Part shown: positions 32,473 through 34,349 of the stretch, piece by piece
Numbering within the stretch: position 1 is the first letter of the stretch
Layout of the letters: every line of letters starts with the position of its first letter
Assembly (NCBI RefSeq): GCF_009914755.1
Contig: NC_060938.1
Origin: the human T2T-CHM13v2.0 reference genome, Homo sapiens
Direction: 5' to 3' (one strand)
DNA length: 64,000 bases
The notes under the pieces: model-generated
Database searches by the model: none
The model's input: the letters and a program-made list of their open reading frames with translations, nothing else
What the model was told of the DNA's origin: nothing
Made by a program: the position numbers and the translations under genes

Positions 32473-34253
32473 CTTTTTTTCCTCTATGAGAGTTTATAAA
32501 ATTATTTTAGAAATTTAAACATCATTGTCTTGATAGAAGAAGTGTTAAGTACATCCACAGAACAATGTATAGAGTCAACTCATGTACACACAATTCTTTA
32601 GAACATGATCATGTCTATTTTAAGCAGTGAGAAAATGATGTACTATTCAATAAATGATGTTGGGTCAATTTGTTATCTATCTGTAAAAGTAATTAAATAG
32701 CTTTCTCACAACATTAGAATAATATCCAAATAAAAAATATACAACATATATGAATATTGTGGGGTACCAACCCTCCAAAGTAAAATATAGACCCTAGAAG
32801 CTATGAAATGTGATTACATAAAAATAACGTTATTACATAAGAATTAAAATCTTGAATATGACGAACAGGTCATAAGCAGTTTGTAAAAATCGACAAGGTT
32901 TCTATTTCAAGACAGTGCATTGCTCACACATTAAAACTTCCCCTTTTGTTTAAGAACTTAGGAATTACTACAAATAAAATAAAAAATTATTCATAATGAT
33001 ATGCCAAAACAATATGGGGAATCTTCATTTGATCAGAAACTAAGGAATCTCTGGAAATTGAAAACTCTGCAGGTGGTAGATGACATATAAAGGTCACTAT
33101 ATTAATCCTCCTAATCACTGAGATTTTTCAATGTGATTCAACGATAGTCAAAGATTAAAGTGTAAAATTTAATGTATTTCCTTCCGAAAGTGCTCTCTTA
33201 GGATTCTGTGTGCTCAGCTTAGAATTCTATACTTCATTTGTATCACAGATGAATTTCATTTGTATCCCATATTCCACATCAGTGGAAAATCTTTCATCTG
33301 CCTTCAGAAAATCTTGTCAAACCTTTCATTCTGCTCAAAAGTCATGTAAATTTTTCAGTCTCCAATGGTGTTTTTGTGAAGGAAATGCCCTTCTTTACTT
33401 TTTCTCCTAATTCTAATGTTTAGTAGGTTTGCATAATTTGCTAGTGGGTCATCCTTCATGTTCTCAAATGTGGCCTCCATGTGGCATCCATGGCCTCCTC
33501 ACTCAGTTATTTCCCCAGAAACTTGCAGAGTTTTAATACAGAACCTCTGAGATCCTTCTTCATCTCCTCATACATTATGAACTGAATGTTGAAGTGGCTT
33601 TTGTGCTCATACCAACATTTGATATGGCCAAATCAAAGGCTTCCTACCACTTTTCCTTCTAAAAATTGTTTCATAAAATCCTCAGTGGTAGCTGTAGGCT
33701 TACACATTGTCATCATCTTTGAAAAACGAAAATATGAGCACATAGCATCCTTCGGGTTTCTGTATAGATATATCATTTTGACTTTTTCGTTCTTTATCCC
33801 TCTTGGAACCAAATAGTATGGGAGGTGGGTTGCAAAGAGATGAGGAGATGGTCTTTCACAAAAATTCATGTTTTTGCCGCTGTACTCAAGAAAGGGAGCT
33901 TGATACAGTGTTTTCAGATGTTCAGTTCTCTTCCAATGTTCTTCAAAATAAATCAAGCTTAATATCTGCTGACACCAGATAGCTCCAGATTCGGGGTATG
34001 TGACTATGAAGACATCATCATCTCTAATTTCAAACTCATCTAAATTTTCTAAAAAGTCAACATCAATGGTATCATATTGAAGAGAATATCCTTTACATTT
34101 TACCAAAGACGTCTCTGACTCTTCCATAATTCAGTTGCAGTTCTACAGGCTGTACAGGAGGCATGGCTGGGGAGGCCTAAGGAAACTTAAAATCATGGTG
34201 GAAGGTGAAGGGGAGGCAGGCACAATCTTCATATGGCGGAGCAGGAGAGAGAG
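32473..34253 (-). pseudogene. Processed pseudogene of a SULT3A-type (amine) cytosolic sulfotransferase
   Basis: Intronless coding remnant 33227-34127: DDVFIVTYPESGA (5'-PSB loop, normally TYPKSGT), THLP, YRNPKDAMCS, FLHKNTIGD*K (RKGxxGDWK motif); W-to-TGA stops at 33633 and 33355; ~750-nt 3' UTR, residual A7 tail (32474-32480), TSD aatacaca at 32465-32472 and 34254-34261; interrupts an L1 endonuclease region. SULT3A assignment is from recalled similarity. Confidence 0.88.
34139..34253 (-). mobile_element. MaLR (MST/THE1) LTR segment forming the 5' UTR of the retrocopy
   Basis: Minus strand ctctctcctgctccgccatatg...caccttccaccatgattttaagtttccttaggcctccccagccatg...gaact; homologous to the THE1 LTR at ~44765-44845 in this window. 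Confidence 0.88.
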
Positions 34254-34349
34254 AATACACATGCTTCTTAAGTACATAGAACATTCTCCAGTATGGATCA
34301 TATGTTAGTCCACAAAACAAGCCTTAACAAATTCAAGAGGATTGAAATC

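What the first reader, a model, noticed from the sequence alone, without database searches (positions are those of the whole stretch)
34128..34261. Fossil cDNA of an LTR-promoted, spliced SULT3A transcript
Seen: inside the retrocopy's TSD (aatacaca), the first ~115 nt on the minus strand are MST/THE1-type LTR sequence in sense orientation. They end at ...cagcctgtagaact and are followed by only 11 non-LTR nt (gcaactgaatt) and the sulfotransferase ATG. Aligned to the THE1 LTR in this window, the segment starts roughly 30 nt downstream of the TATA-like box (~44735) and ends at gaact (44841-44845). Established: MaLR LTRs carry a splice donor immediately after GAACT (GAACT|GTGAGT) and act as promoters in oocytes, early embryos and DUX4-expressing cells. 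Inference: the parent gene was transcribed from an LTR promoter with an LTR-derived exon 1 spliced to the first coding exon, in cells where L1 could retrotranspose it. This would be a record of a germline or embryonic sulfotransferase isoform. I do not know of it being described.
Basis: partly seen in the sequence, partly recalled or inferred. Interest (0 to 1): 0.85.

Follow-up and report, generated by a model that had tools for sequence, protein, structure and literature searches.

The report
Retrocopied sulfotransferase mRNA with LTR first exon
A dead, intronless copy of a SULT3A-type sulfotransferase gene on human chromosome 14 still carries, at its very front, the piece of a retrotransposon LTR that runs from the LTR's start site to its splice donor, so it most likely records an ancient LTR-driven germline transcript of a gene that humans have since lost.

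Summary
On the minus strand, 34253-32473 is one insertion flanked by a perfect 8-bp duplication (tgtgtatt) inside an old L1. Twelve of 12 aligned L1 paralogs run uninterrupted across that site. The insert is an intronless, disabled SULT3A-type (amine sulfotransferase) copy, not a SULT1C2 copy as RefSeq labels it.

Its first 115 nt are a sense MST-type MaLR LTR piece, agreeing with the commonest base of 27 genomic copies at 108 of 115 positions. The piece starts about 30 nt after the copies' TATA-like box. It ends at gaact, where 15 of 19 copies with that motif intact continue with GT. The ATG 11 nt later aligns with the start codon of orthologs.

Best reading (about 0.8): an LTR-initiated mRNA, spliced from the LTR donor to the first coding exon, was retrocopied by L1.

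- **Caveat on the junction:** the 11 intervening nt match the LTR's own continuation at 7 of 11, so the boundary is less clean than claimed.
- **Caveat on the parent gene:** I found no parent gene in the human genome, so the acceptor could not be checked.

The pseudogene is already in print as a primate retroposon; I found no mention of its LTR exon. It is a new member of a known kind, of moderate interest.

The parts
34254..34261 (-). 5' target-site duplication tgtgtatt. It may extend to 16 nt as aagaagcatgtgtatt, which would give a tt|aagaag L1-endonuclease-like site.
   Evidence: L1 paralogs read ...gaagaatgtgtatt followed directly by ctgctgctgttgg.
34139..34253 (-). MST-type MaLR LTR piece in sense orientation, 115 nt. 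It runs from about the LTR transcription start to the base before the LTR splice donor (ends gaact). Inferred to be LTR-derived exon 1.
   Evidence: 108 of 115 positions agree with the commonest base of 27 copies. A TATA-like motif lies 25-37 nt upstream in 23 of 27 copies (mode 30). GT follows gaact in 15 of 19 copies with that motif intact.
34128..34138 (-). 11 nt, gcaactgaatt, between the LTR piece and the ATG. Inferred to be the start of the first coding exon (5' UTR). Ambiguous, because it matches the LTR continuation at 7 of 11.
   Evidence: Human SULT1 paralogs have a pyrimidine tract plus AG 4-21 nt before their ATG.
33243..34127 (-). Disabled intronless SULT3A-type coding sequence. 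It is open for 164 codons. It then has TGA where orthologs have W, a TAA where orthologs have E, further stops and at least one frameshift.
   Evidence: The Microcebus protein matches over residues 1-292 with 8 stops read through. M1 aligns with ortholog M1.
32481..33242 (-). 3' UTR of the retrocopied mRNA. A variant poly(A) hexamer, tataaa, sits at 32498-32493.
   Evidence: read from the sequence. No other human locus matches it except a short repeat stretch.
32473..32480 (-). Remnant of the poly(A) tail: aaaaaaa followed by g.
32465..32472 (-). 3' target-site duplication tgtgtatt.
34262..34345 (-). Host L1 fragment, upstream flank of the insertion. An Alu lies beyond it.
   Evidence: 1131 first-look candidates; the best paralogs are 82-88% identical.
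32330..32464 (-). Host L1 fragment, downstream flank. It continues the same L1 register. Only this stretch was aligned; the L1 appears to run on further.

Best explanation
A primate-lineage SULT3A-type (amine sulfotransferase) gene once had an MST-type MaLR LTR upstream that served as a promoter. Transcription began at the LTR's own start site, about 30 nt after its TATA-like box. The 115-nt LTR-derived first exon was spliced from the LTR's built-in donor (gaact|gt) to the first coding exon, which began 11 nt before the ATG. In a germline or early-embryo cell this polyadenylated mRNA was reverse-transcribed and inserted by the L1 machinery into an old L1 on what is now chromosome 14.

The copy decayed, and no parent gene is now detectable in the human genome.

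- **Shown:** a single insertion with duplications, its intronless SULT3A identity, and the position, orientation and boundaries of the LTR piece.
- **Inferred:** promoter use, splicing at the donor, the cell type, and L1 as the copier.
For: 1. **One insertion.** Twelve of 12 aligned L1 paralogs (of 19 fetched) run straight across the site. The window's two flanks join into that sequence with tgtgtatt duplicated.
2. **Processed copy.** Human SULT1 paralogs break at YPKSG|gt, while the copy reads through that point. A lemur protein matches residues 1-292 in one collinear stretch. An A-run and a tataaa hexamer lie at the 3' end.
3. **SULT3A type.** PDB 'Amine sulfotransferase' scores 198 bits against 91 bits for SULT1C2. 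The best 120 homologs are dominated by amine sulfotransferase(-like) proteins. A tree puts the copy sister to the strepsirrhine genes, with support 92/79.
4. **The LTR piece starts at the expected start site.** A TATA-like motif lies 25-37 nt upstream in 23 of 27 copies, with a mode of 30 nt in 8 copies. TE-derived start sites carry TATA at -25 to -30 (PMC12963367, passages).
5. **The piece ends at the donor.** GT follows in 15 of 19 copies with gaact intact. Thirty of 39 genome alignments stop within 2 nt of it. MaLR LTRs carry a donor near their 3' end and no acceptor (PMC5538554, passages).
6. **The 11-nt leader fits the gene family.** A pyrimidine tract plus AG lies 4, 7, 9, 10 or 21 nt before the ATG in 9 of 12 human SULT1 first-coding-exon loci.
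7. **The ATG is the ancestral start codon**.
8. **Living parallels exist.** MSTA-initiated transcripts splice into genes in human and macaque oocytes (PMC6908575, passages).
Against: - **The tail resembles the LTR.** The 11 nt after gaact match the LTR's own continuation at 7 of 11. By chance that happens for 0.9% of all window 11-mers, or 0.6% of those just before an ATG. Seven of 39 alignments ran through the tail. So the drop in similarity at the donor is not sharp.
- **The tail does not decide the matter.** LTR continuation at the piece's own 6.1% divergence would give 4 or more mismatches with probability 0.003. By my hand calculation that rises to about 0.013 at 9% divergence.
- **Parent locus unseen.** Neither the acceptor, nor the upstream LTR, nor the native 5' UTR could be examined.
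- **Weak end signals.** Only 7 A's remain of the tail. Only 8 bp of the duplication are perfect, and the 16-bp version matches at 12 of 16.
- **Start-site precision.** MST start sites are described as broader than THE1's (PMC12963367, passage).
Confidence: 0.8

Rival explanations
1. Unspliced read-through. At the parent locus a truncated MST LTR lay directly against the start codon, for example after a deletion. The mRNA ran from the LTR start site through the mutated donor and 11-12 more LTR bases into the ATG, with no intron.
For: The 11-nt tail matches the LTR continuation at 7 of 11, and at 8 of 12 if the A of the ATG is counted. Three of the four differences also occur in individual copies: gtaag, gtgac and gtgagtg. 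Seven of 39 alignments extend through the tail.
Against: - No 11-nt window inside the piece falls below 9 of 11 (105 windows).
- Four mismatches in 11 has probability 0.003 at the piece's own divergence.
- It needs a deletion that removed the last roughly 70 nt of the LTR and the whole native leader, ending exactly at the ancestral ATG.
- The family norm is an intron 4-21 nt before the ATG.
Confidence: 0.08
2. Template-switch chimera. While copying a SULT3A mRNA, L1 reverse transcriptase jumped to a separate LTR-initiated RNA and copied it to its 5' end. This is the mechanism known for U6-L1 and similar chimeric retrocopies (recalled from the literature, not read here).
For: It would also explain a 5' end at the LTR start site and a single pair of duplications.
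Against: The junction would have to fall either exactly at the LTR donor or exactly at the ATG, both unlikely for a random jump. Nothing else marks a jump. Splicing at this donor is the documented behaviour of MaLR LTRs (PMC5538554 and PMC6102241, passages).
Confidence: 0.05
3. The LTR piece is not part of the retrocopy. Either the copy landed in or beside an existing LTR, or an LTR fragment inserted later.
For: None beyond adjacency.
Against: - The flanks are L1 right up to the duplication on both sides, and the L1 paralogs are uninterrupted there.
- The sequence upstream of the piece agrees with the LTR copies at only 7 of 29 positions, so no LTR promoter region is present.
- The LTR's 3' part does not follow the poly(A) end.
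- As far as I recall, integrase-mediated insertions leave whole LTRs with their own duplications.
Confidence: 0.02

Closest known systems
LTR-initiated chimeric gene transcripts from MaLR LTRs (mouse MT in oocytes; human MSTA or THE1 transcripts such as MSTA-RHOBTB3 in oocytes)
   Same: The LTR supplies the promoter, the start site and a short first exon that ends at the LTR's built-in donor and is spliced to a downstream genic exon (PMC5538554, PMC6102241 and PMC6908575, passages). The piece here has those boundaries.
   Different: Here the transcript is seen only as a DNA fossil in a retrocopy. No parent gene is detectable in the human genome, and the acceptor side is unverified.
Processed pseudogenes as records of past transcript isoforms (the 'genomic fossils' idea; recalled, the original paper was not read here)
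   Same: An L1-made, intronless, polyadenylated copy with target-site duplications preserves the exon structure of the template mRNA, including an alternative first exon.
   Different: The preserved alternative exon is LTR-derived, and the parent gene is lost. The copy is therefore the only trace of that isoform in catarrhines.
The human Sult3a1 retro-pseudogene in the literature (GLADX, PMC3377690, citing Freimuth et al. 2004) and RefSeq LOC100421787
   Same: It is most likely the same locus, though the passages I read give no coordinates. The paper describes an intronless Sult3a1-like pseudogene in Homo, Pan, Gorilla and Pongo, fixed since at least the catarrhine ancestor, with the positional ortholog lost.
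   Different: The paper does not contain the term LTR (0 occurrences). RefSeq spans only 33292-34091 and names it a SULT1C2 pseudogene, which my comparisons contradict.
Pseudogene recycling by ERVL/MaLR LTRs (Franke et al. 2017)
   Same: An LTR and a processed pseudogene are joined in one transcript unit.
   Different: There the LTR sits in the genome beside the pseudogene and drives it. Here only the transcribed part of the LTR is present, inside the duplications, with no promoter region. The LTR therefore came in with the mRNA.

Membership tests
L1-mediated processed pseudogene (retrocopy) | No introns where the gene family has them | tested here: met
   Paralogs break at YPKSG|gt, while the copy reads through that point. 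The Microcebus protein matches residues 1-292 collinearly.
L1-mediated processed pseudogene (retrocopy) | Target-site duplications flanking the whole unit, and an intact empty site | tested here: met
   tgtgtatt lies at both ends. Twelve of 12 aligned L1 paralogs are uninterrupted across the site. The true orthologous empty site in another species was not tested.
L1-mediated processed pseudogene (retrocopy) | 3' poly(A) tail preceded by a polyadenylation signal | tested here: met
   Seven A's follow a variant tataaa hexamer that begins 18 nt upstream. The tail is short, as expected for an old copy.
L1-mediated processed pseudogene (retrocopy) | L1 endonuclease-type target (TT|AAAA-like) | tested here: inconclusive
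   The site is good (tt|aagaag) only if the duplication is read as 16 nt, which matches at 12 of 16. With the perfect 8 nt the site is not canonical.
SULT3A (amine sulfotransferase) family | Closer to SULT3A proteins than to any other cytosolic sulfotransferase | tested here: met
   PDB 'Amine sulfotransferase' scores E 1.1e-57 against SULT1C2 at 6.9e-25. Pfam Sulfotransfer_1 matches at E 2.9e-32. The best homologs reach 51-68% identity and nearly all named ones read amine sulfotransferase(-like). The copy is sister to the strepsirrhine genes at 92/79 support.
MST-type MaLR LTR | Sequence similarity to the genomic copies, in sense orientation | tested here: met
   The 27 fetched copies are 86-93% identical. 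The piece agrees with their commonest base at 108 of 115 positions. It carries two blocks absent from the window's THE1-type LTR.
LTR-initiated spliced chimeric transcript | The 5' end lies at the LTR's transcription start | tested here: met
   The piece begins 25-37 nt (mode 30) after the TATA-like motif in 23 of 27 copies. No start-site mapping data for MST were examined.
LTR-initiated spliced chimeric transcript | The LTR exon ends at the LTR splice donor | tested here: inconclusive
   The piece ends at gaact, and GT follows in 15 of 19 copies. The next 11 nt still match the LTR at 7 of 11, so the boundary is not sharp.
LTR-initiated spliced chimeric transcript | Joined to a genic exon at its acceptor, with the LTR upstream at the parent locus | not testable with these tools
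   No parent locus was found in the human genome. No other primate DNA is available. Paralogs give only indirect support.
Template-switch chimeric retrocopy | The junction is unrelated to splice sites, and the 5' part is an independent RNA | tested here: not met
   The junction coincides with the LTR donor, and the leader length fits the gene family. This is not a strict exclusion.

The most novel reading that the evidence does not exclude
The LTR exon works as a cell-type stamp. MST-type MaLR LTRs act as oocyte and early-embryo promoters (MSTA transcripts are seen in human and macaque oocytes). This retrocopy would then show that its template was made, and copied by L1, in the female germline or cleavage embryo of an early haplorrhine.

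If so, retrocopies that begin with start-site-to-donor LTR pieces could be used genome-wide to map where heritable retrocopying took place. Such a survey could also recover germline isoforms of genes that no longer exist.
Probability: 0.3. Interest if true: 0.6.

Novelty: new member of a known kind. Interest (0 to 1): 0.4.

Why it matters
**What it preserves.** It is a clean example of a retrocopy that preserves an LTR-derived first exon. It does so for a gene, SULT3A, that I could not detect in the human genome and that is reported lost from apes. The fossil is therefore the only evidence in our genome that this detoxification-type enzyme once had an LTR-driven isoform expressed where heritable retrocopying occurs.

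**Annotation.** It corrects the RefSeq label: the locus is SULT3A-type, not SULT1C2. It also extends the pseudogene's real limits to 34253-32473.

**Wider use.** The idea that such 5' LTR pieces mark the tissue of origin of retrocopies is testable genome-wide. As a single case it does not change what is known about LTR promoters or retrocopies.

Tried and rejected
**Parent gene in human.** I searched three ways, and each found only the chr14 copy plus SULT1/2 paralog exons, with nothing on chr6:
- the copy's DNA;
- the N-terminal 164 aa (22 matches of 30 candidates);
- a full lemur ortholog (58 matches of 66 candidates).

Only the best candidates are scored, so a badly decayed remnant is not excluded.

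**Other dead ends.**
- A profile search of the human genome with the ortholog alignment was not accepted by the tool. I used a single ortholog instead.
- No genomic LTR copy stands out as the source. The best are 91-92% identical, and none shares all of the piece's rare bases.
- Freimuth 2004 is not held.
- A genome-wide hunt for other retrocopies that begin with LTR start-to-donor pieces was considered and dropped.
- Chance as the explanation of the LTR piece is rejected.
- 'Landed next to an LTR' is rejected.
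Full report
**What is there.** The layout below is on the minus strand.

| Window coordinates | Content |
|---|---|
| up to 34262 | L1-like flank |
| 34261-34254 | tgtgtatt (5' duplication) |
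| 34253-34139 | 115 nt ending ...cagcctgtagaact (LTR piece) |
| 34138-34128 | gcaactgaatt |
| 34127 | ATG opening a 164-codon frame that then breaks down |
| 33242-32481 | about 760 nt of 3' UTR |
| 32498-32493 | tataaa hexamer |
| 32480-32473 | seven A's and a g |
| 32472-32465 | tgtgtatt again (3' duplication) |
| below 32465 | L1-like sequence |

So are those for the THE1-type LTR elsewhere in the window: gaact at 44841-44845 and tatat near 44735.

**Is it one insertion?** I used paralogous copies of the flanking repeat as stand-ins for the empty site.
- The 92 nt upstream flank found 1131 first-look candidates in the human genome. Forty were scored and 19 non-self loci were fetched.
- I aligned the first 12 of them. 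In all 12 the sequence runs ...gaagaatgtgtatt and straight on into ctgctgctgttgg....
- That is exactly the window's upstream flank joined to its downstream flank, with tgtgtatt counted once.

So everything from the first base of the LTR piece to the A-run entered an old L1 as one unit. The LTR piece lies inside the duplication. The flank just upstream of the piece agrees with LTR copies at only 7 of 29 positions, so no LTR promoter region is present. This rules out a landing beside an existing LTR.

The duplication is 8 bp if only perfect matches count. Read as 16 bp it matches at 12 of 16 and gives a tt|aagaag target, which resembles the L1 endonuclease site. That point stays open.

**What gene was copied.**
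- The open 164 aa carry Pfam Sulfotransfer_1 at E 2.9e-32.
- Among solved structures the best match is 'Amine sulfotransferase' (7v1o) at E 1.1e-57 and 198 bits. SULT1C2 follows at 6.9e-25 and 91 bits. 'Amine sulfotransferase' is the name used for SULT3A1; the species of that entry was not shown.
- In the large protein database, 147 proteins passed E 1e-20 among 280 candidates. Of the best 120 listed, 10 carry no name, and nearly all the others read amine sulfotransferase(-like). Identity runs from 68% (a mole) down to about 50%.
- The only primates in that list are strepsirrhines: Microcebus, Otolemur, Eulemur and Nycticebus at 59-63%. No monkey, ape or tarsier appears.
- The ATG aligns with M1 of the eight orthologs I aligned.

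I built a maximum-likelihood tree of the human fragment with 27 proteins. I picked these from the 120 to span mammalian orders and left the other 93 out. The tree places the copy as sister to the strepsirrhine genes with support 92/79, which is below the tool's star threshold. Its terminal branch is long.

The RefSeq name 'SULT1C2 pseudogene' is therefore only a nearest-human-paralog label.

**It is a processed copy.**
- Human SULT1 first coding exons end at YPKSG followed by gt. The copy reads through the same point.
- A lemur protein matches it collinearly over residues 1-292, with 8 stops read through and a second frame for the last part.

**No parent gene was found in human.** Three searches found only this locus and exons of the SULT1, SULT2 and SULT4 paralogs. 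Nothing appeared on chromosome 6. The searches used the copy's DNA, its first 164 aa and the lemur ortholog. Only the best candidates are scored, so a badly decayed remnant is not excluded.

This agrees with GLADX (PMC3377690, passages read). That paper reports intronless Sult3a1 pseudogenes in Homo, Pan, Gorilla and Pongo. It describes a retroposon fixed since at least the catarrhine ancestor, with loss of the positional ortholog. It cites Freimuth et al. 2004 for the human pseudogene; I could not read that paper.

**The LTR piece.**
- With the 134-nt finding as query, the genome gave 2267 first-look candidates. Forty were scored. The 39 non-self rows are 85-92% identical.
- I fetched 27 copies with flanks. 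The copies begin tgatatgg and end actaataca, like the window's THE1-type LTR. The piece shares two blocks with them that the THE1 copy lacks. I therefore call it MST-type. I could not run Dfam to name the subfamily.
- The piece agrees with the commonest base of the 27 copies at 108 of 115 positions. None of its 105 overlapping 11-nt windows falls below 9 of 11.
- The copies themselves differ from the commonest base at 6-17 positions. The piece is therefore an ordinary member of the family.

**Its two ends.**
- *Upstream end.* In 23 of 27 copies an A-rich TATA-like motif starts 25-37 nt before the position where the piece begins, most often 30 nt (8 copies). That is the normal TATA-to-start distance, and TE-derived start sites carry TATA at -25 to -30 (PMC12963367, passages). 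The same paper notes that MST start sites are broader than THE1's.
- *Downstream end.* The piece stops at gaact. Among the 19 copies with that motif intact, 15 continue with GT, 3 with AT and 1 with GA.
- MaLR LTRs are described as carrying a splice donor near their 3' end and no acceptor (PMC5538554, passages). A subset encode a canonical donor in the consensus (PMC6102241, passage).
- In one search, 30 of 39 alignments end within two bases of this point.

**The weak spot.** The 11 nt between gaact and the ATG are not cleanly foreign.

| Test of the 11-nt tail | Result | Call |
|---|---|---|
| Match to the usual continuation gtgagtcaatt | 7 of 11 | 26, 28 |
| Copies matching the tail at 8 of 11 | 6 of 27 | 26 |
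| Genome alignments running on through the tail | 7 of 39 | 5 |
| Chance of 7 or more matches, all 11-mers of the window | 0.9% | 47 |
| Chance of 7 or more matches, 11-mers just before an ATG | 0.6% | 47 |
| Chance of 4 or more mismatches if the LTR continues at 6.1% divergence | 0.3% | 47 |
| Same, at 9% divergence | about 1.3% | my hand calculation |

The tail itself hardly discriminates. The choice rests on mechanism.

*Splicing* at this donor is the documented behaviour of these LTRs. A short leader is also the family pattern. Among 12 human SULT1-type first-coding-exon loci, 9 show a pyrimidine tract plus AG shortly before the ATG:
- five near-identical chr16 loci at 4 nt;
- four distinct loci at 7, 9, 10 and 21 nt.

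Two loci show none within 45 nt, and one could not be evaluated. These acceptors are read from sequence only. The gene names I would attach to them are recalled.

*Read-through* would need a deletion that removed the rest of the LTR and the whole native leader and stopped exactly at the ancestral ATG.

*A reverse-transcriptase template jump* would need to land exactly on one of these landmarks.

I therefore put the spliced LTR-exon reading at about 0.8, read-through at about 0.08, template switch at about 0.05 and the rest on unknowns.

**Mechanism, with shown and inferred steps.**
- Shown: a single polyadenylated, intronless SULT3A-type copy with duplications; and a sense LTR piece at its 5' end that spans the start-site-to-donor interval.
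- Inferred: an MST LTR upstream of the primate gene drove transcription. Its 115-nt exon was spliced to the first coding exon. The mRNA was present in germline or early-embryo cells, as any inherited retrocopy requires. L1 made the copy. The parent gene was later lost in the lineage leading to apes.
- MSTA-initiated transcripts that splice into genes in human and macaque oocytes (RHOBTB3, GLIS3; PMC6908575, passages) show that this class of promoter works in such cells today.

**Novelty.** Three things are already known: the pseudogene itself, the LTR-promoter-plus-donor mechanism, and the idea that processed pseudogenes fossilise isoforms. The last of these I recall rather than read here.

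The LTR exon of this particular copy did not turn up in my searches:
- SULT3A1 with pseudogene and human: 7 papers.
- SULT3A1P and variant names: 0 papers.
- SULT3A1 with retrotransposon and primates: 1 paper, which its abstract shows to be on another subject.
- Processed pseudogene, LTR-derived, splice donor, retrocopy: 12 papers; I read passages of one, PMC5538554.
- Retrocopies, LTR-initiated, parental gene, oocyte: 39 papers, 12 listed, none containing 'LTR-initiated'.
- The GLADX text contains no occurrence of 'LTR'.

Franke et al. describe LTRs that drive neighbouring pseudogenes. That is a different arrangement. Subscription papers and supplements were not searchable.

I class the finding as a new member of a known kind, with moderate interest.

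Noticed in passing
window 33292-34091 (RefSeq LOC100421787): The RefSeq name 'SULT1C2 pseudogene' does not fit. The copy is far closer to amine sulfotransferase (SULT3A) proteins, and the real retrocopy spans 34253-32473, well beyond the annotated span.
   Followed up: yes
window 44585-44930 (+): A solo THE1-type LTR. It runs from tgatatgg to actaataca. Its donor position reads gaact|ctaag, so the GT is lost in this copy.
   Followed up: partly
G000:C3:139549361-139549780 (-), locus L086: A second stretch resembling a cytosolic sulfotransferase. It is 25% identical to the lemur SULT3A-like protein over residues 93-235, in one collinear piece with 5 stops. It looks like another old intronless sulfotransferase remnant.
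   Followed up: no
window 32621-32714 (-), inside the 3' UTR: This roughly 90-nt stretch has 10 weak matches (73-88%) on other chromosomes. A small dispersed repeat therefore lies in the copied 3' UTR, or entered later.
   Followed up: no
window 32427-32434 (-): A third tgtgtatt lies 30 nt downstream of the 3' duplication (38 nt start to start), in the context gcatatgtgtatt, which resembles the 5' flank gcatgtgtatt. In the L1 paralogs this position reads tatatgtctgtt, so it looks like L1-internal similarity rather than a rival duplication.
   Followed up: partly
proteins: Among the best 120 SULT3A-like proteins the only primates are strepsirrhines, alongside colugos. No tarsier, monkey or ape appears.
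   Followed up: partly
window 34346-34500 (-) and about 31860-32080 (-): Alu elements interrupt the host L1 on both sides of the retrocopy. An (AT)n run lies near 31545-31575.
   Followed up: no
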